IMG/VR virus record: IMGVR_UViG_3300028888_000064
Location: 32,001 to 96,000 of that record
From: a virus
Taxonomy: Duplodnaviria; Caudoviricetes
DNA: 64,000 nt
Direction: 5' to 3' (one strand)
Shown: one piece after another, positions 1,481 to 16,307 of the stretch
Numbering within the stretch: the first letter of the stretch is position 1
Layout: the number at the start of each line of letters is the position of its first letter
Position numbers and translations under genes: made by a program
The notes under the pieces: model-generated
Database searches by the model: none
What the model was told of the DNA's origin: nothing
The model's input: the letters and a program-made list of their open reading frames with translations, nothing else

Positions 1481-1481
1481 A

Positions 1482-1512: not shown

Positions 1513-1634
1513 GTCGCAAAAGCCAACATTTTTAACGGAATGGGTTATCAAAAGGACAACATAACTATACGAATGCCTTATTAATGAATAACAAGAGTTT
1601 ATTTTCGTTTGGCGACTTAAACTTTATATAGATT

Positions 1635-1736: not shown

Positions 1737-1752
1737 CTAAATAAGATCAATT

Positions 1753-2163: not shown

Positions 2164-2180
2164 TTCAACAAATATTTCAT

Positions 2181-2576: not shown

Positions 2577-2607
2577 TCCTGTTTTTATTTTAAATTAAAA
2601 TAGTATC

Positions 2608-2763
2608 GTGATAATACTTAGACGCAAAACATATTCCCTCCTAAGAAATGTTAGTGATACTGTAGGATTAACAACCTCTGATCCAAAGCAAATCGAAGCA
2701 AACAGTAAGTCCAACGGTGGCATGTATTGGAAGAGGGCAAAAGCCCCAATATTTGGAGGATAG
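2608..2763 (+). CDS. Unannotated 51-aa leader-bearing ORF (GTG start)
   Basis: Translates as MIILRRKTYSLLRNVSDTVGLT..., a perfect leader. The N-terminus resembles its GNAT neighbours. Confidence 0.6.
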   Translation: MIILRRKTYSLLRNVSDTVGLTTSDPKQIEANSKSNGGMYWKRAKAPIFGG

Positions 2764-2770
2764 ATACGAG

Positions 2771-3253: not shown

Positions 3254-3381
3254 TAATAAAAAGAAAAAAGAAAACTACTGTGGATAAACATAGTCTAAGA
3301 CAAGAGCAAGTTGAGGAGAAGAAAGCTCCCGGTTTTATTTCGACCTCAGAAATAAAGACAGTTACCTCACATTGGCCATGA
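3250..3381 (+). CDS. Unannotated 43-aa ORF with leader-like start
   Basis: MIIKRKKKTT...; ATGA overlaps with both neighbouring genes suggest translational coupling. Confidence 0.5.
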   Translation: MIIKRKKKTTVDKHSLRQEQVEEKKAPGFISTSEIKTVTSHWP

Positions 3382-4439
3382 TACTACTTAGACAGAAAGA
3401 ATATACTAGGGCTGAAAGAGAAGCGTTGAAAGAATTACTATTCAAAACTGGAAAACTTCGAAGATTACCAGGAGGCTCTAAAATGACCGCCAGGGATGTT
3501 GCTAGATTCAATAAATTAGCCGCGGATGTGCAACTTTGGACTAAAGGTTATAAACCTAAAAAAGAGGACTTTAAAAGTGCTAAGGTATTCTTAGAACATG
3601 CAGGTTTAGGAAAGTCCGCTGAAGAGTTAGAACACATAGCTAGTAAATACTCTAATAGAGAGGTGCTCTCTCGATGGCAAAGATTAAGACAGCGCCATAG
3701 TGAATTTGACATTCCGGGAATCAGCTCAAAACAACTAAAGAGGTTAAATAAAAGATATGATATCGATCGTAAGAACTGTCATAAAGTTCTTACAGATTTA
3801 GGTAGTTTAGAGAGAGGTGAAGGAAGTTTAATAGCAAACTTAGCAGAAGATGCTAAGAAAAAAAATATTCCTATTATTCAAAATTTAGGAGAGCCTTCAG
3901 AAAGTTTTACGGAATCATTAAATTATACGCGTAAACTTGCAGGAAGAGATAATGTGGAAGGAATCTTAAAAAGTATTAAGTATGATACTCCTGAATTTTC
4001 AACAAAACAAGCAAAGAGACTTGAATCTGCAGTAAAAAATAAAAACGTTGATAATATTGTAGTTATTGGTAAATCAACGGGCCCTGGAATTCTTGCTCAT
4101 GAATTAGGACATTGTAAGACATTAGATACAAGTTCTTCCGGTAGGTATCTAGATTTGGCAGGAAAAGCCGAAGATAGGGTATTACGTGTATTATCTAGAA
4201 AAAATGATACCCCCCATCTATTTTATCTACATAATAGGGCAAGGCAGATTGGGGATTCACTAGGTGAAATAGCTAATGAGAGTAGTGCCACTTCTTATGG
4301 TTTAGCCAGATTAAAGAAACATGGTTCTACTTCAAAACAATTAAAGAAAATGAAGGATGAATTAGGTCTTAATGGGGCTTTAGGAACATACGTAAATAAG
4401 AATAGAAAAAAAATTGCTGAAAGCTATTTAAACGAGTGA
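3378..4439 (+). CDS. Leader-bearing zinc metallopeptidase-like protein
   Basis: MILLRQKEYT leader; ILAHELGHC (HExxH) plus downstream ANESSAT third-ligand Glu; homologous to 40520. Confidence 0.75.
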   Translation: MILLRQKEYTRAEREALKELLFKTGKLRRLPGGSKMTARDVARFNKLAADVQLWTKGYKPKKEDFKSAKVFLEHAGLGKSAEELEHIASKYSNREVLSRWQRLRQRHSEFDIPGISSKQLKRLNKRYDIDRKNCHKVLTDLGSLERGEGSLIANLAEDAKKKNIPIIQNLGEPSESFTESLNYTRKLAGRDNVEGILKSIKYDTPEFSTKQAKRLESAVKNKNVDNIVVIGKSTGPGILAHELGHCKTLDTSSSGRYLDLAGKAEDRVLRVLSRKNDTPHLFYLHNRARQIGDSLGEIANESSATSYGLARLKKHGSTSKQLKKMKDELGLNGALGTYVNKNRKKIAESYLNE

Positions 4440-4484
4440 AGTGATTATATTAAATAACCTAATAATCTATTAATTTTACTACAT

Positions 4485-5189
4485 ATGGACACCATAAACC
4501 CTTTTTCAGACCCAGAATTTAAGAAACAAATCCTGGAGTCATCATTAGGTAAAGACGTGTCACCTGATAATTACGAGATTATAGAGGACAATTCTGACAC
4601 TAGTAAACAAGACTTGAAGTCCATGATATCAGGGGCACCAAAGTTACCTAGGTCAGCAAAGAATATCATTCTTGATGCTAGTGCTATAGCCAAGAATGAA
4701 AAAGAACAGAAGGTAAAAGAAATGGAGTTAGCTTTAAATCAAGTACTAACTTCATATAATAAAGAGTATGGTTTATCACTAAACTTAAATTTGAGTGACT
4801 TAAGTAAGTCGCTTATTGATGTATCTGATCCAAAGAGAAGGAGAATCCTAGAGCTTTACGTATCAGAACTTTATTCTAGTGTTAGACCTCTTTTATACCT
4901 TCACCTGATACAGAAGTTATACGTGGCTATGGATTATATTCTTGATCCAGAGAGATTGCTTGGTAGTCAAGATCTAACCACGGCAGATATGTTTCTTGTA
5001 GTAGAGAAGCTTATGTCTTATATTGAGCAAATATCTCAACTTCAGGATGAAGTTACCATAAAGGGTGCCGACCTGGAGTTAAAGAAAATAGCTGATGAAA
5101 ATAAAGACATAGATTTTAATAGCTCTGAATCTAAAGAAACTATTGATAACTTTATGAAGCTCTTTAATAGAGAATCAGGTATTCAGTAG
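4485..5189 (+). CDS. Hypothetical helical protein (possible terminase small subunit)
   Basis: 234-aa ORF directly upstream of the portal. The function guess is positional only. Confidence 0.35.
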   Translation: MDTINPFSDPEFKKQILESSLGKDVSPDNYEIIEDNSDTSKQDLKSMISGAPKLPRSAKNIILDASAIAKNEKEQKVKEMELALNQVLTSYNKEYGLSLNLNLSDLSKSLIDVSDPKRRRILELYVSELYSSVRPLLYLHLIQKLYVAMDYILDPERLLGSQDLTTADMFLVVEKLMSYIEQISQLQDEVTIKGADLELKKIADENKDIDFNSSESKETIDNFMKLFNRESGIQ

Positions 5190-5212
5190 GATGTGACTGA
5201 AGCGCAATATAA

Positions 5213-5267
5213 CCCTACAAGAGAATTGAAATATGATTCTTGCTATTCGATTAGGTTGTAGGGCCTA
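5213..5267 (+). ncRNA. tRNA-like three-way-junction element, copy A
   Basis: CCCTACAA/TTGTAGGG closing stem; AGAAT-loop-ATTCT; TG linker; CTA-TTCGAT-TAG. Confidence 0.6.
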
Positions 5268-5288
5268 AATTATATAAAGTTTGAGTTT

Positions 5289-6995
5289 ATGAAAAAAAGC
5301 GAAGGATTTTTTCAAAAGATTTTTGGTTCCTATTCTATAGGTAACTCGAGAATGCCACTTAGAAGTAACATTTTCAAAGGAAACGGTTACTCTCAGATAG
5401 GTGGTACGGGAAGATGGGGGAAGAATAGTATGAATAGACAGAGTCCTTTATTAGGGAATTCTAGCCCATCCAACCTTATCTCGGGTTATTATGATAGAAT
5501 AGATGAACTAAGAGGATATCAATTGTTGGATATTGTAAAACTAGCAACTAACTTTTTCTCAGATTACATAGTAAATTTCTTAGAGGATAGTGGTTCTAAG
5601 GTAGTTACTATTTATTCGGAGGATGGTTCAACAGTTGATGAAGTAAAAACAGAAAGAATAAATGAGATCCTAACAAAAGATCTCAGAATTTTTGATTATA
5701 TTAAGGACCATGTTAAAGATATGGTCTTTTATGGGCAATATACAAGCTTGATCTGTAGATCAAAGGACGAACTAGGACACACAAAGTTTAGATTTGAAGA
5801 GCTTAGCGATCCTGTATCTGTCATTTCTAAGAAAAAGAGAAACTCGGAGGGTGGTATTGATGAAACATTCTTAGCTAGGGGTGAAGACGGTAAAGTTTAC
5901 GAAATTAGTAAGAATGATGCCTTTACCTTAGGTAATATTAATCTTCGTCTTATTAATGACATGGAAGAAGGTTATAAAACTAAGAATAAAGAAAATCCAA
6001 AACCATCTTTTGGTAAAGTGTCTGGAGAATCCGCATTGGATAAAATTAGGAAAACTTGTTCTTATTCAACAAGTGAACCCTTATTCTATTCTATGATTCT
6101 TAAAGTAAAGGAGTTGATTATTAAGGAACTCCTAGTTTCTTTAATTTCTCTTAGAGACCTTTCCAGCGTTCAGATTTTCCTACTACAGTTTGATAAGAGT
6201 ACTCCTATTGAAACTGCTAATGAACTTTGTGCTAGAACTACAAAGTTAGCGAATAATACAAATGAATTAGCTTCTTTCTTGACTAGTAACTTTGACGTTA
6301 TTAGTTTCTTAGAGAATGTGATGTCTCAGTCTGCTAAGTTTGTTCCTGATTATAACTCTACTCTCGGCAATAAAAATAGTATGCTTCCATTAGATAAATT
6401 ATCGGATAAAATTTTGGAAGTAATGCAAACAATTGATACCTGTAGAGCTAATGTACTTAGTCCACTGGGTATTCCTAGTTCTATCCTAGATTCGACTAGT
6501 GGTAGTAAATGGACTATCTTACAGCAGTCAGAAAGAGCTAATAGTAGAGTTAGTGGATATATTGGCGGAGTAAAAGAATCTGTTCTGAACTTAGTATTAA
6601 TCTTACATGATATCCTGTATGGAAAGGATCTTGATCCTAATCTCGTAAAACTTCATGTATCAGAGAAGACTAGTGTAGAATACAATAACCAGATTAATCA
6701 ATCTGAGTCTATTGGTGGTCTTTTGACAGGTATTACAGGTGTTATTACTAACTCCCTACAGACACTCGAAGGAGCTGCTCCACTTATTGATACTAAGGCT
6801 TTCTTGAACTATATTCGTAGTTTGATCAAAGATATTGACCCAGATACAGAAGCACTAATTACGGATCAAACGGTAGAGGCTTATGCAGCATTTATGCAAT
6901 CTAAGATGGTAGCCGCCGCAGAAAACCAGGGTATTGATCCAGGTTCATTTATGAGTTTCCTTCAACAGGGAAATCAACCTAATCAAATGATGTAA
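5289..6995 (+). CDS. Putative portal protein (T4 gp20-like)
   Basis: 568 aa, near the terminase. Portal-like segments KDMVFYG, QIFLLQFD and LSPLGIPSSIL (cf. gp20 L-x-[VI]-P-x-S-R-L). Confidence 0.7.
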   Translation: MKKSEGFFQKIFGSYSIGNSRMPLRSNIFKGNGYSQIGGTGRWGKNSMNRQSPLLGNSSPSNLISGYYDRIDELRGYQLLDIVKLATNFFSDYIVNFLEDSGSKVVTIYSEDGSTVDEVKTERINEILTKDLRIFDYIKDHVKDMVFYGQYTSLICRSKDELGHTKFRFEELSDPVSVISKKKRNSEGGIDETFLARGEDGKVYEISKNDAFTLGNINLRLINDMEEGYKTKNKENPKPSFGKVSGESALDKIRKTCSYSTSEPLFYSMILKVKELIIKELLVSLISLRDLSSVQIFLLQFDKSTPIETANELCARTTKLANNTNELASFLTSNFDVISFLENVMSQSAKFVPDYNSTLGNKNSMLPLDKLSDKILEVMQTIDTCRANVLSPLGIPSSILDSTSGSKWTILQQSERANSRVSGYIGGVKESVLNLVLILHDILYGKDLDPNLVKLHVSEKTSVEYNNQINQSESIGGLLTGITGVITNSLQTLEGAAPLIDTKAFLNYIRSLIKDIDPDTEALITDQTVEAYAAFMQSKMVAAAENQGIDPGSFMSFLQQGNQPNQMM

Positions 6996-6996
6996 T

Positions 6997-7368
6997 ATGA
7001 AAGACATTGATAAAGATCATTCCATTGAAGAAAAGGATGACTTGGCCAAAACTGGTATAGTGGCAGGTAGTGGTATGGTAGGCCTAGGTGGTACTGCCGC
7101 AGGACTTGCAGCTATGTCTGAGAGGATTCTTGGTAGTAAAAAGATTAGCTTAGGTGAAAAAAAAGCTCTCCTAACTCACCTTGAAGAAAGGGCAAGAGTT
7201 AATGGTCTTAAGACTGCAGACTTTCTCAAAAAAGCCAAGAAAGTAGGTGGTATTACTGCTGCTGTAGGTGCGCCTATTCTTGGTATATCTGCTTATAAAC
7301 ACTATAAGTATAAGAAGCAGATAAAAGATAAGGAAAAGACTGGATTAAATAATAATCAGCAAAATTAA
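6997..7368 (+). CDS. Glycine-rich protein with two hydrophobic segments
   Basis: GIVAGSGMVGLGGTAAGLAA and VGGITAAVGAPILGISAY; basic C-terminus similar in layout to 12114. Confidence 0.6.
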   Translation: MKDIDKDHSIEEKDDLAKTGIVAGSGMVGLGGTAAGLAAMSERILGSKKISLGEKKALLTHLEERARVNGLKTADFLKKAKKVGGITAAVGAPILGISAYKHYKYKKQIKDKEKTGLNNNQQN

Positions 7369-7387
7369 ATAATAGTCAACAAAGATC

Positions 7388-7912
7388 GTGATAGTACTAA
7401 GGCCAATAAAAATCTGTTTTCTTACTGGATTTATGGCTCAAGAATTAGGGAAGCATCAGATAGAAGACTGTTTAAAATCTTTTATTCCAGATTTACAAGT
7501 ACCTAAATTAAGAAGTGACCCTAGTTTGGGTATTAATGATCTAAAGAAGATTCAGAAAACCAAGTGGGATTTAGTTATTGGTTTTAGTATGGGAGGATTT
7601 TACGCAACTAAAGTAAAATCTAGGAAAACGTTTTTAATAAATCCGGGACTTAATATATCAGAGGGAATGATGACGAAAATTCCTGAATACAGCTCAGGTT
7701 TCAAAATAATTGAGAAGTTACCGGATTTAGCAAAAGATGTGACGGGTATGATTGCCGTTGATGATAAAATTAGACCCTATGTAGAACCAATCTTCATTGA
7801 ACGATACGGTAAGGAAAATCTTATACATTTCCCTGGAAAACATGTGCCAGAGATTCCAATAGTCGAGCGGTTTATTATACCAGAAATTAAAAAAACTATA
7901 GCTACTTTATAG
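7388..7912 (+). CDS. Alpha/beta hydrolase (YqiA/YcfP esterase-like) with leader-like start
   Basis: FLTGF oxyanion segment, LVIGFSMGG nucleophile elbow, LINPG, and C-terminal D...GKH; starts MIVLRP (GTG). Confidence 0.75.
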   Translation: MIVLRPIKICFLTGFMAQELGKHQIEDCLKSFIPDLQVPKLRSDPSLGINDLKKIQKTKWDLVIGFSMGGFYATKVKSRKTFLINPGLNISEGMMTKIPEYSSGFKIIEKLPDLAKDVTGMIAVDDKIRPYVEPIFIERYGKENLIHFPGKHVPEIPIVERFIIPEIKKTIATL

Positions 7913-7934
7913 GCTATATTAATATATAATAGGA

Positions 7935-8339
7935 ATGATAATTCTCAGGAATAAATCATTCGCTGTTCCTCAGATGGGGGAGATGATTGATGCTGAGAAG
8001 AGTGGTAAATACCTTAATCCTCAGCCTCAACCAACTCAAGCACAACCTCAGCAAGCTCCACAAGAGATAACTTCAAAAGACCTTCAAATCGAGCAAATGA
8101 GGTTACAGAGACAACAGCGATTATTACAACATCAGAAAGCTAAGCTACAGGTGCAAGAAGGATTGGCAAGAACAAGAGCTATTACACAAAGGCAAAGAAT
8201 GGAAAACGAAAAAAGACAGCAAGATTTAAAAAATATAATGGATATACATAAAAGAATATACGACGATAACGAAGTACATAACCCTACATTATATAAATCA
8301 AAATCAACTATTACTGCGCCTGTAGCTATGCCTAAATAA
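7935..8339 (+). CDS. Leader-bearing Gln-rich coiled-coil protein
   Basis: MIILRNKSFA leader; Q/R-rich heptads. Confidence 0.7.
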   Translation: MIILRNKSFAVPQMGEMIDAEKSGKYLNPQPQPTQAQPQQAPQEITSKDLQIEQMRLQRQQRLLQHQKAKLQVQEGLARTRAITQRQRMENEKRQQDLKNIMDIHKRIYDDNEVHNPTLYKSKSTITAPVAMPK

Positions 8340-8349
8340 TATCATAATT

Positions 8350-8451
8350 ATGGAAGAGAAAGAGAAACTTTTCACTGTTGGGGTAGAGAATATTCGAGCA
8401 GAAGAAAAGAAAGAAGAAGCTAACTATAATCCTCTAAAAGAAAAGGAATAA
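8350..8451 (+). CDS. Unannotated 33-aa acidic ORF
   Basis: MEEKEKLFTVGVENIRAEEKKEE...; fills the gap, and its stop overlaps the next ATG. Confidence 0.45.
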   Translation: MEEKEKLFTVGVENIRAEEKKEEANYNPLKEKE

Positions 8452-8720
8452 TGATTATAGCCCGGAAAAAACATAACAGTAACCCGGGGCAACACGAAGA
8501 CTCTGTGCTGCGAAATATAAATTTGGATCGGGTTGAAAAATTAGGAGATGACTTAGTATATAAATTAGCAGATGTTGCCGATACTGGTCTGAACTATGCT
8601 GCTGATTCAAACCCGGTCGTTGAAAAAGCAACATCGAAGCTTAGAAAGAGAGTTAGTGGATTTACGATACCAATAAAGAAGCTAATATCTCTAAAAAGAA
8701 AGAAGAATAAAGACGAATGA
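8451..8720 (+). CDS. Small basic protein with leader-like start
   Basis: MIIARKKH... Confidence 0.6.
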   Translation: MIIARKKHNSNPGQHEDSVLRNINLDRVEKLGDDLVYKLADVADTGLNYAADSNPVVEKATSKLRKRVSGFTIPIKKLISLKRKKNKDE

Positions 8721-9088
8721 TTATACTCAGAACAAAGGAGTTTTCCATTAGTGCTGCAGAATCCAAGTACTGGAAAGCACTTTGGGAAGAATACAATAAA
8801 AAGTTTAAAACTTCGAAACTAAAATTTGAGTTTAAAGATAGGCCAAATGGACTTATTAAACTCTCCTTTCAAGGAATTACTTGGGTTTATATTGAGTTTG
8901 ATAAGGTGAGAGCTACAGATTATAATGGAGAAAATGTTTCTGACTCTAAGTATTATGTCTGGCATGAACTCTCAAATAGTCTCGAAGAAGACATGCCTCT
9001 TGTTCAGAGAAATCCAATTACTTATGATAGCATAAAGTGGTTAATTGGAGAACTTAGGCGAGAGCTATTAACTAAAAAACCACATTGA
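8717..9088 (+). CDS. Leader-bearing hypothetical protein
   Basis: MIILRTKEFS leader. Confidence 0.7.
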   Translation: MIILRTKEFSISAAESKYWKALWEEYNKKFKTSKLKFEFKDRPNGLIKLSFQGITWVYIEFDKVRATDYNGENVSDSKYYVWHELSNSLEEDMPLVQRNPITYDSIKWLIGELRRELLTKKPH

Positions 9089-9110
9089 TAACTTTTTAAA
9101 TAATAATAAT

Positions 9111-9194
9111 ATGTTTGATGTACTAATTGGTTCAATTGTCGCCGTAGCAGTAGTATTATCTAACTACGACGTCTTTTTTGGGGGAAGGATTTAA
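9111..9194 (+). CDS. Unannotated 27-aa single-TM-like peptide
   Basis: MFDVLIGSIVAVAVVLSNYDVFFGGRI, preceded by an A/T-rich TAATAATAAT start context. Confidence 0.4.
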   Translation: MFDVLIGSIVAVAVVLSNYDVFFGGRI

Positions 9195-9243
9195 TCCTTA
9201 CCTCCCATACCTTAAGGTATATCAAATAGATTTTTGCTACATT

Positions 9244-11109
9244 ATGGAGCCATTTATAAATCAATATGATCCGACTGCATATGTAGACCTAACATCAGTT
9301 TCGTTAGAACAGCAATATTCAAAATTAACTGAACAAGAAAAATTATTAATATTCTGCAAAATAAATGGATATAACAGAATACCTCCTAGTATACAAAGAT
9401 TATACTCTGATGAATATTACTTAGGGGGTTCTGCTTTTTTTGACGGTGGTGATAATATTTATCAATTTTGGAAAGACAGTTTACCTATGATTTTTCCAAA
9501 TGAAGTAACGACTGCAAAGCCATTTCTTATACTTAGTGGAGCAATCGGTATTGGTAAATCTACGATCTCCAGATTGTGCTTGGCCATGACGTACGCAAGA
9601 ATGTTATGTATGTCCAACCCAAGTAGAACATTAAAGCTCACACCTAAACCTTTTTCTGCTGTTATTTATCACAGAGATGAAGAAGTTGCTAGAAAAGAGT
9701 TTAAATATTGGTTTACACAGGAAGTATTAGTTAAGTCACCGTTTTTCAAAAATACAAGAGGCAATTTCAAATTTAACGTTTTAACTTCAGGTCCTCTATC
9801 AGCTGCTGGTCTAGGTAGTGATGTAATCGTCTACATTATCAGTGAGGTTAACTTTTTCCCAAATCAGGAAAAAGCTCAAGGTATAGTAGAAACAGCTTAT
9901 GGTCGTTTTACTAGCCGTTTTGATAGAGGTGCTATGACTAAAGTAGGAAATCTTATCATAGACTCTTCCGCAAAGGGAGATAGTTCTGTGACGGAGTGGT
10001 TCCTAGATAATACACCTAAAGACCTAACGTGGAATTGTCATCCAACACATTTTGCAGTAAAACCAGATGCATATAAAGAGTCTAGGGGAAGAACATTTTC
10101 TGTTTATATAGGCGATGGTAAATATCCCCCACAGATCCTTCCCGAGGATTATAGACTCTTAGAAGACCAAGACCCAGAGAGAGTACTGAAAATTCCCTTT
10201 CAGCTTTATGTAGAAGCTAAGCAGAACTTGGAAAAAATGCTCCAAGATAAGTGTGGAATTTCGACGGGAGCATCAGACTCTTTCTTCAGAACATTAGAGC
10301 ACTTTATTAATTGTACAAAAGGCCGCCAAAACTTTGTACCAGAGGTTATCTGTGTAGATTTTTATGATAAAACTGATAGACTTATAGATAAGATTGGTAG
10401 TGCCTTGAGGGGAATTAAGTTTGGTACCTCTATATGGATTGGTCTTGACCTAGCCACAAACAGTGACTTCGCAGGAATTAGTGCAGTAACCTTTGATAGC
10501 TGGGAAGTTATCGATAAAGTTAGGTTACCTAGGGTAAAATGTTTATTTGCCTTAGCAGTATCTAGAAAAGAAGGGCAAGAGACAAGTTTATATCACATTT
10601 TTGACTTAATAATGTCTCTTAAGAAGAATTATCACCTCATAGTATCTGCTGACCAAGCTTTTTCTAAACAAATACTACAGGATTGTGAGAGAGAAGGAAT
10701 AGTTACTAATGGTAGGATTAGTACAGATAATGTTCCTTGTGAACCTGCACTCTACTTGAAGAACTTAATTATGCAAGAGCTCATCAGTATTCCCTACAAC
10801 AGAAGACTAATGAGAGAAATTCATGACTTACGATATGTATCAACTAAGAGAGGTCTTAAAGTAGATCACCCTAAGAAAGCTACCTATAACCCAACAGTTT
10901 TTGATGATAATAATGGAGTAGGTTCTAAGGACGTCTGGGATTCTCTTTGTTCTGCATGTTATAGTCTGAAAATGTCAATTGATGCCGGAGAAGAAGGTGG
11001 TTATTCTAGTGGTATTGATAAACAATTAGAGATTGTTAAACATATGACGAGGAGTGCTGCCTCTGAATCAGGACAGATAGTTCAGAATATGTTAGAGAGT
11101 ATATTTTAA
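9244..11109 (+). CDS. terL: Terminase large subunit
   Basis: Walker A SGAIGIGKS, Walker B-like YIISE, motif III DSSA, RNase H-like IGLDLA, and C-terminal KVDHP...SKDVWDS. Likely start MEPF at 9244 (ORF track starts at TTG 9178). Confidence 0.9.
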   Translation: MEPFINQYDPTAYVDLTSVSLEQQYSKLTEQEKLLIFCKINGYNRIPPSIQRLYSDEYYLGGSAFFDGGDNIYQFWKDSLPMIFPNEVTTAKPFLILSGAIGIGKSTISRLCLAMTYARMLCMSNPSRTLKLTPKPFSAVIYHRDEEVARKEFKYWFTQEVLVKSPFFKNTRGNFKFNVLTSGPLSAAGLGSDVIVYIISEVNFFPNQEKAQGIVETAYGRFTSRFDRGAMTKVGNLIIDSSAKGDSSVTEWFLDNTPKDLTWNCHPTHFAVKPDAYKESRGRTFSVYIGDGKYPPQILPEDYRLLEDQDPERVLKIPFQLYVEAKQNLEKMLQDKCGISTGASDSFFRTLEHFINCTKGRQNFVPEVICVDFYDKTDRLIDKIGSALRGIKFGTSIWIGLDLATNSDFAGISAVTFDSWEVIDKVRLPRVKCLFALAVSRKEGQETSLYHIFDLIMSLKKNYHLIVSADQAFSKQILQDCEREGIVTNGRISTDNVPCEPALYLKNLIMQELISIPYNRRLMREIHDLRYVSTKRGLKVDHPKKATYNPTVFDDNNGVGSKDVWDSLCSACYSLKMSIDAGEEGGYSSGIDKQLEIVKHMTRSAASESGQIVQNMLESIF

Positions 11110-11119
11110 ATTTGTGGCT

Positions 11120-11320
11120 ATGATTATTATCAGAAATAAAACCTTTGCTCAACAGGAGAAAGCTCCACAGTGGATGCTAGATGAGGAAGGAGTGATTCAC
11201 CAGGATACGGATGGATCTTGGAGAATAGTGAATAGAAAAAAAGGCACTCTCTGGAATGCTAAGTATAAGAGTAAAGAATCTGCTCAAGCAGGACTTAGAG
11301 GGTATTTTGCAAATAAGTAG
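11120..11320 (+). CDS. Leader-bearing small protein
   Basis: MIIIRNKTFA leader. Confidence 0.7.
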   Translation: MIIIRNKTFAQQEKAPQWMLDEEGVIHQDTDGSWRIVNRKKGTLWNAKYKSKESAQAGLRGYFANK

Positions 11321-11329
11321 TAGTTTATT

Positions 11330-11527
11330 ATGATAGTCCTAAGACAAAAACAATATAGTTTTATTAAAAAGAGTTTATATAATAGACTACTAGAAAGAAC
11401 GAATAAGCAACTTCGTAATATTCAGGAGCTATCTAGGAATAAATTTGTTGTAGTTACTAATAAGGGTAGACAAATTTTTGAAAAAGCTAAAAGAGCTAGG
11501 TTTAGATTCCTGAATATGTTGAAGTAA
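11330..11527 (+). CDS. Leader-bearing small basic protein
   Basis: MIVLRQKQYS leader; K/R-rich. Confidence 0.7.
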   Translation: MIVLRQKQYSFIKKSLYNRLLERTNKQLRNIQELSRNKFVVVTNKGRQIFEKAKRARFRFLNMLK

Positions 11528-11544
11528 ACGATTTTAGTAAAAAT

Positions 11545-12006
11545 ATGATAATTATTAGACAAAAAGAATTTGCTAGGGCAATTCCTAAGGAATTAGTTGT
11601 AAAAGAGCTTGAACGTAGAGGATTGGCGGGAAAAATACATTCACCATTGGGTATTGGTATACCAAAATACATATCGAGGGACTTTAAAACTGTAAAAAAT
11701 CCTAGTTACGTTAAAGAAACTGAAGCAGCTTGGCAGAAATGGCAGAATCAGGGCAAGAGTTGGTCTACTGGAAAGTATAAAGACCTTGGCGTTAATCAAA
11801 GAATTAATCTTAAGGGAACTCTTGAAAACACTGGATTTGATAAATATACTACAAATCTTAAAACTGGTGGTAGAATCCCTTGGAAAAATAAAAAAGTATC
11901 GGCACGTAATGGAGTAGTAGATCACCCATCTAAGTTAATAGATGGTGATTCTGCTATTAAAGTAGCTTCAGGACATACATGGAACATTAGAGATTTCCAT
12001 CATTAA
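11545..12006 (+). CDS. Leader-bearing basic protein
   Basis: MIIIRQKEFA leader. Confidence 0.7.
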   Translation: MIIIRQKEFARAIPKELVVKELERRGLAGKIHSPLGIGIPKYISRDFKTVKNPSYVKETEAAWQKWQNQGKSWSTGKYKDLGVNQRINLKGTLENTGFDKYTTNLKTGGRIPWKNKKVSARNGVVDHPSKLIDGDSAIKVASGHTWNIRDFHH

Positions 12007-12014
12007 ACCAACAC

Positions 12015-12085
12015 TTAGGGACTAAGAAACCTAAATAAACAATAAACCTCTTACTATTTTAGTAAGAGATACACTAAACAATAAA
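12015..12085 (+). promoter_or_regulatory. Two intergenic hairpins plus TAAACAATAAA repeats
   Basis: TTAGG/CCTAA and CTCTTACT-atttt-AGTAAGAG. TAAACAATAAA occurs at ~12036 and ~12075, and again at ~14143. Confidence 0.4.
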
Positions 12086-12113
12086 CTAAACAATTTAAAA
12101 ACTAATAAGAATT

Positions 12114-12845
12114 ATGTTAATTAAGCGTAATGTATATTTCTCCGCAATTGACGAAGACGGAGAAGAGAGATTGTATTCCACTACTGAAGTAATGGATGAA
12201 CAGGATTACATCGAAAGACTCTATGCAGAAGCAGAAGACGAAGAAGCTGTAGGTGGTAAGAAAGGTCTAAGCTCACTTCAGGCTGCAGGTATTGGTGGTG
12301 CAGCTGCTGCTACTGCTACAGCTGGAGCAGGCGCTGGCTTATATTTTGGTGGTGAGAAGCTCGGAAAACACCTAGAGAAGCGCAGAAAGAAGGCTCTTGA
12401 GAAGTTACAGCAAGAGCGCTCGAACTACTTGGACCGCTATACAGATAAGACTATTGGAAAGACCAACCTAATGCAGTGGGATTCTTCCGCAAATGGTGGA
12501 AAAGGCGGAATGGTAGATAAATCTATGGGCCTAAAGGAGATTGAAGGTAAGATTGCTGCAAAAGGTCAGGCAGGTAAGTTGGAAACTAAGCTGAAGAATA
12601 TTAAGGATTACTTTAAGAATGCGAAGGGTCTTGCTGAAGCTGAGGAGAAGCTTGTTAATTCTCGTAAACTATCAGGTGCTGCTAAGACAGCTGCTGAGCA
12701 GAAAGCAGTCGAGTTGAACAAGGCAGCCAAAGCTCTCGCACGTAATCGTAAGCTTGGTGCTGCTGGTATCGCCCTTGGTACTACAGCTGTCGGTACTGGT
12801 ATTGGCTACGGTATTCATAAATATCGTCATCGCAACGACAACTAA
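12114..12845 (+). CDS. Glycine/alanine-rich virion-type protein with acidic scaffold-like propeptide
   Basis: MLIKRNVYFS...ERLYS...DYIERLYAE (cf. scaffold DYMERLFSD); two Gly/Ala hydrophobic segments. Confidence 0.7.
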   Translation: MLIKRNVYFSAIDEDGEERLYSTTEVMDEQDYIERLYAEAEDEEAVGGKKGLSSLQAAGIGGAAAATATAGAGAGLYFGGEKLGKHLEKRRKKALEKLQQERSNYLDRYTDKTIGKTNLMQWDSSANGGKGGMVDKSMGLKEIEGKIAAKGQAGKLETKLKNIKDYFKNAKGLAEAEEKLVNSRKLSGAAKTAAEQKAVELNKAAKALARNRKLGAAGIALGTTAVGTGIGYGIHKYRHRNDN

Positions 12846-12854
12846 TGATTATAC

Positions 12855-12904
12855 TTCCCAGGTGAACATTACAGGTTCTATGGTTCGATCCAACCTGGGA
12901 ACCA
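12855..12904 (+). ncRNA. tRNA-like three-way-junction element, copy B (ends in CCA)
   Basis: TTCCCAGGT/ACCTGGGAA 9-bp stem; GAAC-attacag-GTTC; TA; TGG-TTCGAT-CCA; then CCA. Confidence 0.65.
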
Positions 12905-12937
12905 ATTAGTTTATAAATCGTAAATAATCAATTTAAT

Positions 12938-13504
12938 ATGATAATATTAAGACAGTACCTCCAAAAAATGTTTGGAATAGGTGATCATGAGTTAGCAAAA
13001 AAGGAGGGATTCAAGAATGTTAAGGACTACCGGTTCTGGCGAAGACGAATGAGTGAATCTGCTTCTCCTATAGATGTATTTATTGAAGGGAAAAATGTTG
13101 CTAACAGTGGACTTGAAAGTGTAGTTAGTAGGAATAGTGAAAGAGCACAGAAGCGTCTTAATACTATTGCAAAAAAACAAGGGTATAGTAGTAAATTCGT
13201 TAAGGATGCCCAAGCAGATCTTCTCAATGAATTTAAATATAATAAGCGTGCATTAGGACTCTCTAATCAAGGTGCATATGATTTAATAAATTCATATGAT
13301 AAAAGGGCTAATGCTGCAATTCAATATGAAAATTTAAAAAGAGAGTTAAAAACTAAAGGTCTTGATAAAATGCAGCAACTGGTGCCAGGTATGTCTAATA
13401 AAGATTTTGCCCAAGCATTAAAAAATAAATGGTTAACACCAAAAGAACGTCAAAATTTAAGTAAAAAGGGATTATCTGCTCTTAAAAAAGTTCGTATTCG
13501 TTAA
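12938..13504 (+). CDS. Leader-bearing basic protein
   Basis: MIILRQYLQKMFG; basic C-terminal tail. Confidence 0.7.
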   Translation: MIILRQYLQKMFGIGDHELAKKEGFKNVKDYRFWRRRMSESASPIDVFIEGKNVANSGLESVVSRNSERAQKRLNTIAKKQGYSSKFVKDAQADLLNEFKYNKRALGLSNQGAYDLINSYDKRANAAIQYENLKRELKTKGLDKMQQLVPGMSNKDFAQALKNKWLTPKERQNLSKKGLSALKKVRIR

Positions 13505-13596
13505 CTTTAGTCTTCAAGAATTTAGTAGTATTAAATTAAAAATATTTCCAATGAGGTGATATTTTATCAAATAAAAAAAACACATATTCTCTTAAT

Positions 13597-13627
13597 GGGG
13601 GGGGGGGGTATGAAAAAAAAAACCCCC
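13597..13627. repeat. Homopolymer cluster G12 / A10 / C5
   Basis: GGGGGGGGGGGG-TATG-AAAAAAAAAA-CCCCC directly upstream of the 13641 gene. Confidence 0.8.
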
Positions 13628-13640
13628 GATATTAAGAGAT

Positions 13641-14066
13641 ATGATAGTTTTGAGACAAAAAATCTTCTTTCAGTCTAGGACTTCTGGAGAATACTTTACA
13701 GGAGCGGATATTAATAAGTCAGTTAAAGAACTCGATCATCAGGGTAGACTTCTTGGTATGTCCGAAGAAGGAATAAAGAGACATAGAGGAAATGCAATTA
13801 AGAATGCTTACGCACTGCATCAGGTAGACCCAATTAATATTCCTCTGGGAAAAACAGAAAGATTTGACGATTGGGTCAATAGAAAGTTAACTGCAAAGAG
13901 AAAGACTTTAGATTGGTTAGAAAATAAGGGCGTAATAAGAAAACTTAACGATCATTTTTGGACGATTCCTGATAAACCTGTGACTACAGCTGCTAAAGTT
14001 GAAAGTAAGGGGTTGGCAAAATCAGGAAAGATTATAAAGCGTGCTAAATCTCTTCTCAGAAAATAA
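13641..14066 (+). CDS. Leader-bearing basic protein
   Basis: MIVLRQKIFF leader; basic tail. Confidence 0.7.
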   Translation: MIVLRQKIFFQSRTSGEYFTGADINKSVKELDHQGRLLGMSEEGIKRHRGNAIKNAYALHQVDPINIPLGKTERFDDWVNRKLTAKRKTLDWLENKGVIRKLNDHFWTIPDKPVTTAAKVESKGLAKSGKIIKRAKSLLRK

Positions 14067-14092
14067 ACTAGCAGTCGCTAATATCAATCCTA

Positions 14093-14141
14093 CCCAAGAC
14101 TCAGTATTAGCTGATATCCTTCGATGGAATCTTGGGAACTA
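14093..14141 (+). ncRNA. tRNA-like three-way-junction element, copy C
   Basis: CCCAAGA/TCTTGGG stem; TCAG-tattag-CTGA; TA; TCC-TTCGAT-GGA; then AACTA. Confidence 0.65.
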
Positions 14142-14166
14142 ATAAACAATAAATTAAAAATAATAT

Positions 14167-15453
14167 ATGGAAGTACGTGTGAGATGTTGTGGTGTTGGAC
14201 CCCAGTCTTTCGCATCAGACGGTTCTCACATAAGTGAAGAGGTAGTTAGACAGTACTTAAACTCAGAAGACTATAGACTTTCTATTGACGGTAAGTTAAC
14301 GATGGGTTATCTTACCCACAGAGGAAGATCGATCGAATTCTTACCTAGCTCTATTGGTAACCCTGGAGTAAAAAAGGTAATTGGTAGAGATGATGCAGGT
14401 CTTTGTGTTGGTGAAAATCTTCCTACTTTTACACACTATGTGAAAGAATTTTACATTGAAGATGTTCCAGGTCAGGGTCCTTGGCTTTGTGCATTGGTAC
14501 ATATTTTTGATGAGAAGGATGGGTTTGATCAAATTGCAACAGAAAATATTAAGCGATTAAAAGCTCTTATTCGGAGTGGTGTTCGTCTTACCTGCTCATT
14601 AGTAGTTCTTGCTTTCTGGTCTTCTGAAAATGGTAATGGAGTAGATGAGTGTAAGAAGATTAAGGCAATTAAGAGTCTGGATTGGACTGTTAATCCTAGC
14701 TTTGGCCCATTAGCTCGTATTACTGAAGTCTACGATGATGACCAACCTATGAAGGATGACCTTATTAAAACTTTCTCTGAGGTAGAAGGAGACAGTGATT
14801 TTATTAAGTCTCAGCCTAATAAGGAAGGTGAAATTAAGGTTAAGGTATACTCAGACCTAAGCAGTTTCGGGGATATGCCAAAAACTTCAAAGATTGGTGG
14901 TAGATTTACTGAATTAAAGGCAAAAGAATTTTCTAGTGTATGTACAATTACAGTAGATTCCTCTTCACCAGCAGTACAGAAAGAATTTACAGTTGCTACT
15001 ATAAAAGAGCGCGTAAGATATGCTAAATTTTCTCCAAGAATGAGATTTAGAAGGTTATTCTTGGAATATAAGCAGTACGTTAAGCAGTCGGGGGGTGCAG
15101 ATAAAATCGATCCTGAGACGCTTAAGATTTTAAAGTCGCTCTTCTTATCTGATATCAATCAGATCTTCACGGGTCTTACTTCAGAAATTATTGCCGGAAA
15201 GCAGATTAATACGCTTATTGGTGCAGCTTCTCTAGGTAAAGGTGTTAGACAGGCAGCTCAAAAATTACAGCTACCTTATAGAATGGCTTTTCAGGAGATG
15301 CAGAAAACTGGTAAGATTACCCCAATGAGATTTGAAAAGATCAAGACTGCTTATACAGAATTTTCCAAGGCAATGGTTGAAGAAGTATTCGGCGAGAGTC
15401 CTATCCCAGAAGGTTTGGAAGAAGAAATTAAAAATGAGGAGGGAAAACAATGA
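14167..15453 (+). CDS. Prohead core (maturation) protease, T4 gp21-like
   Basis: GYLTH (catalytic His, cf. GELxHP), GVRLTCS (Ser, cf. GVSSR) and LDWTVNPSF (cf. DxVxxPS); lies upstream of scaffold and capsid. Confidence 0.75.
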   Translation: MEVRVRCCGVGPQSFASDGSHISEEVVRQYLNSEDYRLSIDGKLTMGYLTHRGRSIEFLPSSIGNPGVKKVIGRDDAGLCVGENLPTFTHYVKEFYIEDVPGQGPWLCALVHIFDEKDGFDQIATENIKRLKALIRSGVRLTCSLVVLAFWSSENGNGVDECKKIKAIKSLDWTVNPSFGPLARITEVYDDDQPMKDDLIKTFSEVEGDSDFIKSQPNKEGEIKVKVYSDLSSFGDMPKTSKIGGRFTELKAKEFSSVCTITVDSSSPAVQKEFTVATIKERVRYAKFSPRMRFRRLFLEYKQYVKQSGGADKIDPETLKILKSLFLSDINQIFTGLTSEIIAGKQINTLIGAASLGKGVRQAAQKLQLPYRMAFQEMQKTGKITPMRFEKIKTAYTEFSKAMVEEVFGESPIPEGLEEEIKNEEGKQ

Positions 15454-16304
15454 AAAGATTAAAGATTTTCTCTAGTCCAGATCGCATTATTTTCCCAAGG
15501 AGGAAAATTTTCTCAGGAGATGCTCCAACAAATGAAGGTGGGATGGTATTAAGAGAGCTGGTTTGTAGAGACTGTGGTACAGTAATTACTTCTTCTCAGC
15601 ATCCAAGTCATGCGATTTGCCCTAATTGTGGAGGTACTCGCCTCGATATTAAGTTCCTATCACCTAGACAAGATACTGAAAGAGATCCGCATAAAGAAGA
15701 GAATATTAAGCCAGAGGAGTATAGAAAGCCTATTTTTGGTGATGCAGAGTATCAAAAGAGTCTTAGGGAATTCAGTGGAAAAACTATTCCAAAGTCTACT
15801 TTTGAAAAAAGATTTTCCGAAACACAGGCAGAGGGCTTAATAGAGAAAGGATTTGCTACAGTTGAAGGTGATTATGTAATTATTGATCCTATCAGCTATG
15901 AAGCAGAGAAGACATTCTCTAAATTGATTATATCAGTAACTAAAACATTAGAGCTTGACCCTGATATAGTTAGTGGAAAGATTGATAGGGGTAGTGTGAT
16001 TGATCATCTAGAGGAAGATCATAGACTACCAGAGAAAGGAATTATGGTTATCAGGAAGGCTCATGGGCTACCACTTGAGAGTCATATGTTCTGCGAGGAT
16101 TCATGGGTAGAAGATTCTGGCATTATTCCAGATCTTGAACTAGAATATAATAATCAAAGTTTTGGCGTAGATCAATTTCTATCGATCCTACATGACCGTT
16201 ATCCAGATGCCCCAGAGAATATTTTAGATATTCTTATAAAAGAGGGTGTTGTTCGATTAGACGGTACTCAAGTAACAATTCAGAGTAATAGTATTAAAAA
16301 CTAA
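15450..16304 (+). CDS. Prohead core-associated protein with zinc ribbon
   Basis: CRDCG...CPNCGG; multiple K/R-x-F-S sites (KIFS x2, REFS, KRFS, KTFS); between protease and scaffold. Confidence 0.55.
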   Translation: MKRLKIFSSPDRIIFPRRKIFSGDAPTNEGGMVLRELVCRDCGTVITSSQHPSHAICPNCGGTRLDIKFLSPRQDTERDPHKEENIKPEEYRKPIFGDAEYQKSLREFSGKTIPKSTFEKRFSETQAEGLIEKGFATVEGDYVIIDPISYEAEKTFSKLIISVTKTLELDPDIVSGKIDRGSVIDHLEEDHRLPEKGIMVIRKAHGLPLESHMFCEDSWVEDSGIIPDLELEYNNQSFGVDQFLSILHDRYPDAPENILDILIKEGVVRLDGTQVTIQSNSIKN

Positions 16305-16307
16305 AAT

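What the first reader, a model, noticed from the sequence alone, without database searches (positions are those of the whole stretch)
5213..14141. Three intergenic tRNA-like three-way-junction elements with compensatory covariation
SEEN: 5213-5263, 12855-12904 and 14093-14136 share one architecture: a 7-9-bp closing stem with CCC/GGG at or near its base, a 4-5-bp hairpin, a T[AG] linker, then a 3-bp hairpin with an invariant TTCGAT loop. The stems differ in sequence but keep pairing (T-arm CTA/TAG, TGG/CCA, TCC/GGA; first arm AGAAT/ATTCT, GAAC/GTTC, TCAG/CTGA). The 3' ends read CCTA, ACCA and AACTA. They sit just upstream of the portal, a cargo gene and the prohead protease. KNOWN: UUCGA is the tRNA T-loop read by RNase P, RNase Z and the CCA-adding enzyme, and mascRNA-type tRNA mimics direct transcript cleavage. 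INFERENCE: these are anticodon-less mini-tRNA mimics that process or stabilise the late polycistronic mRNA or act as decoys. A ssDNA-level role is not excluded.
Basis: partly seen in the sequence, partly recalled or inferred. Interest (0 to 1): 0.85.

Follow-up and report, generated by a model that had tools for sequence, protein, structure and literature searches.

The report
Miniature tRNA mimics between phage head genes
Three ~50-base RNA folds between the head genes of an uncultivated giant rumen phage are shrunken tRNA look-alikes that sit where related phages carry real tRNA genes, so they probably mark where the long late messenger RNA is cut.

Summary
The three sites (5213-5263, 12855-12901, 14093-14137, + strand) share a three-way junction. 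It has a 7-9 bp closing stem, a variable hairpin, a short linker, a 3-bp stem with a TTCGAT loop, then N-C-TAA. A descriptor finds exactly these 3 in the 133-kb record; shuffles give 0.05. A covariance model finds 90 matches (49 distinct) in the window plus 61 related IMG/VR loci. All 90 lie on the gene strand and all are intergenic, with compensatory changes in all 16 pairs. Rfam 15 and ARAGORN do not recognise them.

The new evidence is that distant relatives carry 8-16 real tRNA genes in the same head-gene module, same strand, sometimes in the same slots. Those tRNAs lack an encoded CCA. They have the same trailer as the elements: discriminator, C (73/79 tRNAs; 47/49 elements), then A/T-rich. 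In both, 12 helix nucleotides separate the T-type loop from the discriminator. Intermediate forms exist, and relatives encode a CCA-adding-family enzyme.

Best reading: reduced tRNA mimics that keep the acceptor/T minihelix and serve as processing signals ("tRNA punctuation") in late head-gene mRNA. The mimicry is well supported. Cleavage is inferred, because only assembled RNA contigs were available.

The parts
5213..5263 (+). Element 1. Three-way junction: P1 5213-5220/5256-5263, P2 5222-5226/5236-5240 (extendable), P3 5243-5245/5252-5254, loop TTCGAT 5246-5251.
   Evidence: R1 score 59.2 bits. Lies 23 nt after the stop at 5189 and 25 nt before the ATG at 5289.
5264..5268 (+). Tail of element 1: discriminator-like N (C), then C, then TAA.
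   Evidence: Tail statistics.
12855..12901 (+). Element 2. P1 12855-12863/12893-12901, P2 12864-12867/12875-12878 with a 7-nt loop, linker TA, P3 12881-12883/12890-12892, loop TTCGAT 12884-12889.
   Evidence: (minimum-energy fold equals the proposed fold). R1 score 54.8 bits. A relative's contig in run X3 keeps 12856-12902 while its flanks differ.
12902..12906 (+). Tail of element 2: N (C), C, then AAT. This copy departs from the TAA consensus.
14093..14137 (+). Element 3. P1 14093-14099/14130-14136 (7 bp inside a 9-position frame), P2 14101-14105/14110-14114, linker TA, P3 14117-14119/14126-14128, loop TTCGAT 14120-14125.
   Evidence: (minimum-energy fold equals the proposed fold). R1 score 40.3 bits.
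14138..14142 (+). Tail of element 3: N (A), C, TAA.
5289..6995 (+). Downstream gene of element 1: a 568-aa portal-like ORF. In relatives its upstream slot holds either an element or a tRNA.
   Evidence: ESM look-alikes of T4 gp20 portal clusters, a lead only. for the slot map.
12938..13504 (+). Downstream gene of element 2: a 188-aa ORF of unknown family.
   Evidence: no family match.
14167..15453 (+). Downstream gene of element 3: a 428-aa prohead-protease-like ORF. In relatives its upstream slot holds either an element or a tRNA.
   Evidence: ESM look-alikes in Peptidase_S77/S80 clusters, a lead only. for the slot map.

Best explanation
The three elements belong to a previously uncatalogued family of sense-strand RNA structures. 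The family is confined, as far as searched, to one clade of roughly 370-kb rumen and gut phages.

Each element is a miniaturised tRNA mimic.
- The closing stem (about 9 positions) stacked on the 3-bp stem reproduces the 12-bp acceptor/T minihelix of a tRNA.
- The stack is capped by a T-loop-type TTCGA(T) loop.
- It is followed by a discriminator-like base, an invariant C and an A/T-rich trailer, exactly as in this clade's own CCA-less tRNA genes.
- The variable hairpin stands in for the rest of the tRNA body.

The elements are transcribed within the long late head-gene transcript. I infer that the enzymes that mature the phage's tRNAs recognise them. These would be RNase Z and/or RNase P, trimming in the A/U-rich trailer, and perhaps the phage's own CCA-adding-family enzyme. 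The polycistronic mRNA would then be cut or given defined ends between particular head genes. Real tRNAs and mini-mimics would serve as interchangeable punctuation marks.

Shown here: the structure, its strand, its conservation, the shared slots, the shared trailer and the shared geometry. Inferred: transcription as part of the mRNA, cleavage, and the enzymes involved.
For: 1. The family is real.
- The descriptor finds 3 copies against 0.05 expected from shuffles.
- It gives 73 hits in 1.24 Mb of related loci, 72 of them on the gene strand.
- The covariance model R1 gives 90 hits at E<=1 in 1.31 Mb, 90 of 90 on the gene strand and 49 distinct.
- In the whole 133-kb record R1 finds only the 3 copies (59, 55 and 40 bits); the next best scores 14 bits.

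2. Covariation.
- All 16 pairs show changes on both sides. 94-96% of cells are paired, against 28-51% when partners are slid by 1-3 columns.
- Orthologous copies such as L008:3474 and L009:9930 differ by double compensatory changes in P1.
- G-T wobbles, including 9-12 U-G at the junction pair, fit the sense strand only.

3. Same slots as tRNAs.
- 398 of 399 ARAGORN tRNA calls in the related loci are on the gene strand. None of the 79 distinct ones lies inside an ORF.
- Slot directly upstream of the portal-like ORF: an element in the window, L002, L008, L009 and L010; a tRNA in L017, L018, L019, L021, L023 and L040.
- Slot upstream of the protease-like ORF: an element in the window, L002, L010, L011 and L022; a tRNA in L013, L018, L021 and L050.
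- In a 93%-complete 367-kb relative, 10 of 12 tRNA matches lie in the 15-kb head module.
- 25 of 27 R1 hits in five contigs cluster within about 14 kb around the portal gene.

4. Same 3' signal.
- After the acceptor stem of 79 distinct tRNAs: +1 is A in 52 and G in 16; +2 is C in 73 of 79; +3 to +5 are A/T-rich.
- After P1 of 49 distinct elements: +1 is A in 30; +2 is C in 47 of 49; +3 is T in 35 and A in 12; +4 and +5 are A in 38 and 35.
- The loop-to-discriminator distance is 12 nt in 47 of 49 elements. A tRNA has 5+7=12.

5. Intermediates fold as mini-tRNAs.
- L010:1630-1662 is a bare acceptor plus canonical T-arm minihelix.
- L001:1830 and L003:8785 have a 7-bp acceptor, a short hairpin and a 6-bp T stem with a 7-nt loop.
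- L002:15559 has a 7-bp acceptor, a 12-nt insert and a canonical-type T arm.

6. Relatives encode a PF01743 (CCA-adding/poly(A) polymerase) protein, as expected for CCA-less tRNAs.

7. Enzyme recognition. RNase Z faces the stacked acceptor and T domains, and the rest of the tRNA is largely dispensable (passage read in PMC3790967). Plant mitochondrial t-elements are an experimentally supported precedent (passages read in PMC1920247).
Against: - No RNA end, small RNA or cleavage was observed. The only RNA data are assembled contigs of sheep-gut metatranscriptomes. Contigs of one run bridge elements 1 and 3, so uncut RNA, or contaminating DNA, exists.
- The T-like arm is non-canonical (3 bp and a 6-nt loop). 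A few copies have loops such as ATCGAA that do not fit a T-loop.
- P1 starts with T-A/C-G, not the G1-C72 usual for RNase P substrates. There is no RCCA.
- tRNA finders and Rfam, including the tRNA model at E<=10, do not recognise the elements.
- Many relatives have neither an element nor a tRNA in the portal or protease slot, so neither is essential there.
- The inverse relation between element and tRNA counts per locus is weak and not corrected for phylogeny (Spearman -0.39, p=0.047, 26 loci).
- In the largest clade the best-conserved copy lies at the end of a + strand unit, before a convergent gene. That fits 3'-end formation but not cutting between two cistrons.
- The copies in alignment A1 were picked with a pairing descriptor, and A2 is fitted to the model. 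The paired percentages are therefore partly circular.
Confidence: 0.55

Rival explanations
1. The element is a 3'-end protective or terminator-like structure. It would block 3'-to-5' exonucleases, or stop a polymerase, at the end of the upstream cistron without any tRNA-processing enzyme. Its tRNA likeness would then be only ancestry.
For: - The elements hug the upstream stop codon. The median gap is 13 nt (quartiles 9-30), while the gap to the next ATG is more variable.
- In L021 and its near-identical relatives the element ends a + strand unit facing a convergent gene.
- Region 1-20000 has only one clear intrinsic terminator on the + strand, at 1482-1503.
Against: - No T-run follows any copy. 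The tail is N-C-TAA.
- A simple hairpin would protect a 3' end. That does not explain the invariant loop, the invariant C, the fixed 12-nt geometry or the 3-way junction.
- It also does not explain interchange with real tRNAs in the same slots.
- Contigs bridge elements 1 and 3.
Confidence: 0.15
2. The element is a binding site (operator or decoy) for a protein that recognises the tRNA top half. Candidates are a phage translational regulator, a tRNA-modifying enzyme, the phage CCA-adding-family enzyme, or a host tRNA-targeting defence protein that the phage titrates.
For: - The loop, the base of P1 (T-C-C ... G-G-A) and the tail are conserved in sequence while the stems covary. That pattern is typical of protein-recognised RNAs.
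- Two thirds of copies lie 16-43 nt before a start codon.
- The clade encodes a PF01743 enzyme.
Against: - No candidate binding protein was identified. The neighbouring ORFs have no family match.
- The elements lack an anticodon loop, so anticodon nucleases cannot be the target.
- About a third of copies are far from any start codon.
Confidence: 0.12
3. The elements are decaying tRNA pseudogenes with no function of their own, left behind as the lineage lost tRNAs from the head module.
For: - Loci rich in tRNAs (L017 has 16, L018 has 10) have no elements, and loci without tRNAs have up to 6.
- The P1 bases resemble the acceptor stems of the clade's tRNA-Arg(TCT) and tRNA-Asn (4 of 49 share the first 5 nt).
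Against: - Neutral remnants would not keep three helices through compensatory changes in 49 distinct copies.
- They would not keep the loop, the C and the 12-nt spacing invariant.
- They would not be 100% strand-specific and intergenic in tightly packed phage genomes.
Confidence: 0.06
4. The element acts at the DNA level, for example as a single-strand initiation or priming signal or a hairpin promoter on the displaced + strand.
For: Strand specificity and stem-loop conservation are formally compatible with a folded single DNA strand. A TATAAA-like motif follows elements 1 and 2.
Against: - Frequent G-T wobble positions, strict intergenic placement on the coding strand and the shared signal with tRNA genes all point to RNA.
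- There is no link to replication genes.
- TATAAA is common in A/T-rich spacers and absent after element 3.
Confidence: 0.03

Closest known systems
Plant mitochondrial t-elements (passages read in PMC1920247)
   Same: They are non-canonical tRNA-like structures embedded in mRNA precursors next to coding regions. They work alongside true tRNAs as signals for RNase P and RNase Z, which create the mRNA 5' and 3' ends. The excised t-elements receive non-templated C/A.
   Different: - t-elements keep a canonical T arm (motif GGTTCRANYCC) and a cloverleaf-like body of about 74 nt. The phage elements are 43-53 nt with a 3-bp T-like stem, a 6-nt loop and a junction shifted to 9|3.
- There is no sequence homology.
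- The setting here is a bacterial virus.
- Cleavage has not been tested here.
Animal mitochondrial tRNA punctuation model (recalled; only search listings seen)
   Same: tRNAs interspersed between protein genes on one strand of a polycistronic transcript. Their excision releases the mRNAs.
   Different: That model uses real, decoding tRNAs in an organelle. None of the 15 papers listed of the 30 holding both 'tRNA punctuation' and 'phage' (titles and abstract starts seen) applied it to phages.
mascRNA and related tRNA-like 3' modules of MALAT1/MEN-beta (recalled; Rfam holds such families, and they did not match)
   Same: A tRNA mimic within a longer transcript that is cut out by RNase P and RNase Z and CCA-tailed, which defines the end of the long RNA.
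   Different: mascRNA is a four-arm cloverleaf of about 61 nt in vertebrate nuclei. The element here is a three-way junction without a D arm, repeated 3-7 times per phage head module.
tRNA acceptor/T-arm minihelix substrates of RNase P, RNase Z and CCA-adding enzymes (RNase Z statement read in PMC3790967; the rest recalled)
   Same: A 12-bp coaxial stack capped by a T-type loop and followed by a discriminator. These are the features the enzymes measure.
   Different: Those are laboratory model substrates with a 7+5 bp stack and a 7-nt loop. The natural elements here have a 9+3 stack, a 6-nt loop and an extra hairpin at the junction.
RNase III processing sites between phage T7 early genes (recalled)
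   Same: Conserved intercistronic RNA structures in a phage polycistronic mRNA. They direct host endonuclease cleavage and leave a stabilising 3' hairpin.
   Different: They have a different fold (a long irregular hairpin) and a different enzyme, and no relation to tRNA.

Membership tests
tRNA (Rfam RF00005 / ARAGORN definition) | Cloverleaf with D, anticodon and T arms that standard tRNA finders can detect. | tested here: not met
   ARAGORN finds 0 genes in the window. In mitochondrial mode none of its 4 calls in 1-20000 overlaps an element. Rfam shows no tRNA match even at E<=10 around the sites.
tRNA (Rfam RF00005 / ARAGORN definition) | Canonical T arm: a 5-bp stem and a 7-nt loop. | tested here: not met
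   All 49 distinct copies have a 3-bp (rarely 4-bp) stem and a 6-nt loop.
tRNA top half (acceptor/T minihelix) | A 12-nt helical 3' strand between the T loop and the discriminator, followed by the clade's tRNA trailer. | tested here: met
   The distance is 12 nt in 47 of 49 elements. C follows the discriminator position in 47 of 49 elements and 73 of 79 phage tRNAs.
T-loop motif | Five-nucleotide T-T-N-R-A sequence signature in the loop. The consensus is recalled, and the 3D fold is not testable here. | tested here: inconclusive
   TTCGA, TTCAA, TTTGA or TTTAA is present in most copies. Three low-scoring copies have ATCGAA, ATCAAA or ACCAAA. The tertiary structure cannot be tested with these tools.
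Plant mitochondrial t-elements | Conserved pseudo-uridine-arm motif GGTTCRANYCC within a tRNA-like fold. | tested here: not met
   The three window copies have 3-bp stems (CTA, TGG, TCC) around TTCGAT and no GGTTCRANYCC. The motif definition comes from PMC1920247.
[quoted passage not shown]
   Only Logan contigs of the RNA runs were available. Contigs cannot show ends.
Intrinsic (Rho-independent) terminator | A G+C-rich hairpin followed directly by a T-run. | tested here: not met
   The terminator scan of 1-20000 lists no site at the three elements. The tails are N-C-TAA.
Known self-cleaving ribozymes and other Rfam 15 families | A match to a curated covariance model. | tested here: not met
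   There are 0 gathering-score matches in the window or the rest of the record. Near the sites only chance-level matches appear, the best at E=0.29 and on the opposite strand.
Programmed readthrough or frameshift stimulator | A fixed reading-frame relation between the upstream stop codon and the conserved TAA of the tail. | tested here: not met
   The frames are 11/10/6 over 27 distinct copies.

The most novel reading that the evidence does not exclude
A clade of ~370-kb gut and rumen phages runs a 'tRNA punctuation' system like that of mitochondria. Real tRNAs and evolved 45-53-nt tRNA top-half mimics would be interchangeable cleavage marks that break up the late head-gene transcript through RNase Z/P and a phage CCA-adding enzyme. 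Each cut would also release a CCA-tailed mini-RNA that may have a role of its own, for example titrating tRNA-binding host factors. This would be the first such system in a virus of bacteria. It would also be a natural minimal substrate showing what these enzymes really need.
Probability: 0.4. Interest if true: 0.85.

Novelty: new variant of a known kind. Interest (0 to 1): 0.78.

Why it matters
The principle is known from organelles and a few eukaryotic long RNAs: tRNA-like structures mark where tRNA-maturation enzymes cut a long transcript. My searches found no description of it for bacteriophage mRNAs. None of the papers listed (10-20 shown per search) gave a phage example.

The family is a natural experiment in how far a tRNA can be reduced. 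It has lost the D arm. Its T stem is cut to 3 bp, and the junction has shifted by 2 bp. It still keeps the 12-bp stack, the T-type loop and the 3' trailer.

It may also explain why this clade's tRNA genes sit inside the head-gene module rather than in a separate cluster. It offers a testable mechanism for setting the relative amounts of portal, protease and other head proteins from one transcript. As a 45-53-nt module it could be useful for engineered RNA processing.

Tried and rejected
- **Known families.** Rfam 15 gave nothing, either at gathering score on the window and the rest of the record or at E<=10 around the sites. ARAGORN in bacterial and mitochondrial modes does not call the elements.
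- **Named relatives.** Megablast and tblastn against 50,697 phage records found no match. PHROGs and Pfam on 20 ORFs named only a tail sheath and a lysozyme/M23 tape-measure-like protein.
- **Recoding.** The conserved TAA of the tail has no fixed frame relative to the upstream stop (11/10/6). A readthrough or frameshift role is rejected.
- **General "hairpin plus N-CTAA" signal.** There are 69 on the + strand, 45 on the - strand and 47 in shuffles, mostly weak stems. ACTAA is not enriched in intergenic DNA (17 against 16 on the reverse complement). CTAA is therefore a feature of the elements and tRNA trailers, not a genome-wide signal.
- **Late-promoter idea.** TATAAA follows elements 1 and 2 but not 3, and it is common in A/T-rich spacers. 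Not pursued.
- **Wider distribution.** An exact 16-base pattern scan of IMG/VR gave 35 stretches. 34 new loci were scored (the 35th, L008, was already held), and only 5 of them hold R1 matches: L071, L077, L089, L093 and L097. Two of these lie on contigs already held, and the other three are further IMG/VR contigs (L077 and L089 from samples that also gave earlier loci). The rest look like chance. Metagenome and bacterial genome collections were not scanned.
- **Metatranscriptome contigs.** One run has a gap at 12833-12928 around element 2, with an adapter-tagged contig end at 12832. This is an uncovered stretch in an assembly and the end is not at an element border, so I draw nothing from it. 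Depth figures are per contig and were not used.
- **CCA-adding enzyme in the window's own record.** No PF01743 match, but the record is only 36% complete.
- **Element-versus-tRNA count anticorrelation.** Weak and not corrected for phylogeny.
- **Origin from tRNA-Arg or tRNA-Asn.** Only 4 of 49 elements share the first 5 acceptor bases, so this is a lead and no more.
- **Prior listing.** PMC10690425 lists 8,495 unnamed candidate structured RNAs from IMG/VR. I read passages only.
- **Not used.** Structure prediction, complex prediction and the large protein searches.

Full report
**What is in the sequence.** The window is bases 32001-96000 of a 133,262-bp virus record with 34% G+C. CheckV rates the record 36% complete. 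Relatives reach 367-401 kb, so this is a fragment of a jumbo phage. The window encodes a tail sheath (27020-29245) and a lysozyme/M23 tape-measure-like protein (44211-49805). Almost nothing else matches Pfam or PHROGs, and no record in the phage collection matches. ESM-Atlas look-alikes suggest, as leads only, that ORF 5289-6995 is a T4-type portal and ORF 14167-15453 a prohead protease. RNA runs that hold the stretch are labelled sheep gut metagenome.

- Copies 2 and 3 fold into the proposed three-way junction as their minimum-energy structure. Copy 1 keeps the closing stem.
- A descriptor requiring a closing stem of at least 6 bp, a hairpin of at least 4 bp, a 0-3 nt linker and a 3-bp stem around TTCGAT finds exactly these three sites in the whole record on both strands.
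- A hundred dinucleotide shuffles give a mean of 0.05 and never more than one.
- All three lie between ORFs on the coding strand, 9-25 nt after a stop and 25-36 nt before the next ATG.

**It is a conserved RNA family.** The portal-like protein retrieved 61 related IMG/VR loci.
- The descriptor hits them 73 times, 72 on the gene strand.
- A covariance model (R1), built on a MAFFT alignment of 30 copies, finds 90 matches at E<=1 in 1.31 Mb. All are on the gene strand and 49 are distinct. Fourteen were not picked by the descriptor.
- In the window's own record only the three copies score (59, 55 and 40 bits; next best 14).
- Every one of the 16 base pairs shows changes on both sides. 94-96% of cells pair, against 28-51% when partners are slid by 1-3 columns.

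These percentages are partly circular, because the copies were chosen or aligned by pairing. The independent evidence is the total strand asymmetry, the shuffle control, and orthologous pairs that differ by double compensatory changes. Frequent U-G pairs fit only the sense strand. The loop is TTCGAT, less often TTCAAT, TTTGAT or TTTAAT. The base of the closing stem is T-C-C...G-G-A. The stem is followed by one variable base, a nearly invariant C and TAA. Rfam 15 has no match.

**The decisive context.** ARAGORN finds no tRNA in the window's record. In more distant relatives the same head-gene module is full of real tRNA genes.
- L017 has 16, L018 has 10, and L019, L021, L023, L040 and L050 have 8-10 each.
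- Over all the loci, 398 of 399 tRNA calls are on the gene strand. None of the 79 distinct ones lies inside an ORF.
- In a 93%-complete 367-kb relative, 10 of 12 tRNA matches lie within the 15-kb head module.
- The mini-elements cluster in the same module: 25 of 27 R1 hits in five contigs and 2 of 3 in the near-complete genome.

A gene-by-gene map shows the two kinds of feature in the same slots.
- Directly upstream of the portal-like gene there is an element in the window, L002, L008, L009 and L010. There is a tRNA in L017, L018, L019, L021, L023 and L040.
- Upstream of the protease-like gene there is an element in the window, L002, L010, L011 and L022. There is a tRNA in L013, L018, L021 and L050.
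- The ~625-aa gene has elements or tRNAs on either side.
- Many relatives have neither in a given slot.

**Shared signal and geometry.** The clade's tRNA genes lack an encoded CCA.
- After the acceptor stem comes the discriminator (A in 52 of 79), then C in 73 of 79, then A/T-rich sequence.
- After the closing stem of the elements comes one base (A in 30 of 49), then C in 47 of 49, then T/A-A-A.
- In 47 of 49 elements exactly 12 nucleotides of helix strand (3 + 9) separate the loop from that base. A tRNA has 5 + 7 = 12.

So the element keeps the tRNA's coaxial acceptor/T stack, its T-type loop and its 3' trailer. The point where the other arms leave the stack has moved by two base pairs, the D arm is gone, and the loop is one base shorter.

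**Intermediate forms.**
- L010:1630-1662 is a bare 7-bp acceptor plus canonical 5-bp/7-nt T arm.
- L001:1830 and L003:8785 are three-way junctions with a canonical-type T arm.
- L002:15559 has a 7-bp acceptor, a 12-nt insert and a canonical-type T arm.
- L004:8040 and L007:13521 are variants with a 4-bp stem and a TTTAAT loop.

Two relatives encode a PF01743 (CCA-adding/poly(A) polymerase family) protein of about 600 aa.

**How it most likely works.** RNase Z recognises the stacked acceptor and T domains, and the rest of the tRNA is largely dispensable (PMC3790967, passage read). RNase P and CCA-adding enzymes are known, from my recall, to accept such minihelices.

Plant mitochondria give an experimentally supported precedent. 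There, non-canonical tRNA-like t-elements and true tRNAs next to coding regions direct RNase P and RNase Z cleavage, which creates the mRNA ends (PMC1920247, passages read).

I therefore read the phage elements as reduced tRNA mimics that have kept the processing signal while losing the decoding function. They would be transcribed within the late head-gene polycistron and recognised by the machinery that matures the phage's tRNAs. The transcript would then be cut or given defined ends at chosen gene borders.

Which enzyme cuts, and on which side, is unknown. The closeness to the upstream stop (median gap 13 nt) may matter. So may the copy that ends a transcription unit in the largest clade. 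Both suggest that forming or protecting the upstream 3' end is as important as freeing the downstream cistron.

**What speaks against it, and what is missing.**
- No RNA end was seen. The RNA runs are available only as contigs, and contigs of one run bridge elements 1 and 3.
- The T-like arm is non-canonical.
- The closing stem lacks the usual G1-C72, and there is no RCCA.
- tRNA finders do not see the elements.
- The inverse relation between element and tRNA counts per locus is weak (Spearman -0.39, p = 0.047, 26 loci, uncorrected for phylogeny).

Rival readings are listed separately: a plain 3' stabiliser or terminator, a protein operator or decoy, a neutral tRNA relic, and a DNA-level signal. 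The invariance of loop, C and spacing, the covariation, and the interchange with tRNAs argue against most of them.

**Novelty.** Seven full-text searches listed no phage example of tRNA-like punctuation (10-20 papers shown per search). A 2023 catalogue of 8,495 unnamed IMG/VR candidate RNAs (PMC10690425, passages read) could contain this motif. I rate the finding a new variant of a known kind. The principle is known from organelles and from MALAT1-type RNAs. The fold, the phage setting and the tRNA-to-mimic series are new as far as I could check.

Noticed in passing
L063:13790-15317 (G000 29790-31317, just upstream of the window): A 1.5-kb non-coding stretch holds six or more repeated units. 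Each has a hairpin with a conserved loop, followed by a T-run and then a conserved CCTTAA..GCCTTATATAT-like motif. It looks like an array of terminator-promoter modules or small RNA genes.
   Followed up: no
window 13595-13630; also 9170-9200: A run of 12 G, then TATG, 10 A and CCCCC lies just before the ATG at 13641. G-runs also appear in intergenic DNA upstream of 9244 and after several elements in relatives (L001 ~7440, L003 ~14800, L014 ~14540). GGGGG is about 20-fold enriched in + strand intergenic DNA.
   Followed up: no
L063 (G000 ~21780-27550): A tandem array of about 12 overlapping ORFs of 144-179 aa on the + strand. In relatives a 144-193-aa paralogous family is the commonest gene directly upstream of the elements: 12 members, 11 of them upstream. 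Whether the two sets are the same family was not tested.
   Followed up: partly
L021:9935-11960 and the same gene in L023, L040, L050: In the 350-400-kb clade the portal-like ORF is interrupted by a stretch of roughly 70 codons (about 200 nt) full of stop codons. The frame resumes after it, which suggests an intron-like insertion. The protease-like and ~625-aa genes are also split into pieces in table 11.
   Followed up: partly
L011:1471-1550; L017:7247-7320: ARAGORN calls tRNAs with four-base anticodons (gtta, ttta). These could be tRNAs with an 8-nt anticodon loop.
   Followed up: no
G006:C1:50146-50547 and G007:C1:39434-39838 (records of L019 and L018): Relatives encode a ~600-aa ORF with a PF01743 (CCA-adding/poly(A) polymerase) domain. 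The clade's tRNA genes almost all encode only the first C after the discriminator.
   Followed up: partly
window 12003-12116: In the intergenic region before ORF 12114, a 9-bp hairpin is followed by three or four ACTAA repeats in an A-rich spacer. This resembles the tail after element 3.
   Followed up: no
window 4485-5189 and 5289-6995: The two ORFs flanking element 1 are in the same frame, separated only by TAG codons (5187 and 5259). This was read directly. The element-wide frame test was negative, so it is probably coincidence.
   Followed up: partly
L093:3211-3537: ARAGORN calls a permuted tmRNA that runs off the end of this short locus, on a contig that also carries an element. Unverified.
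   Followed up: no
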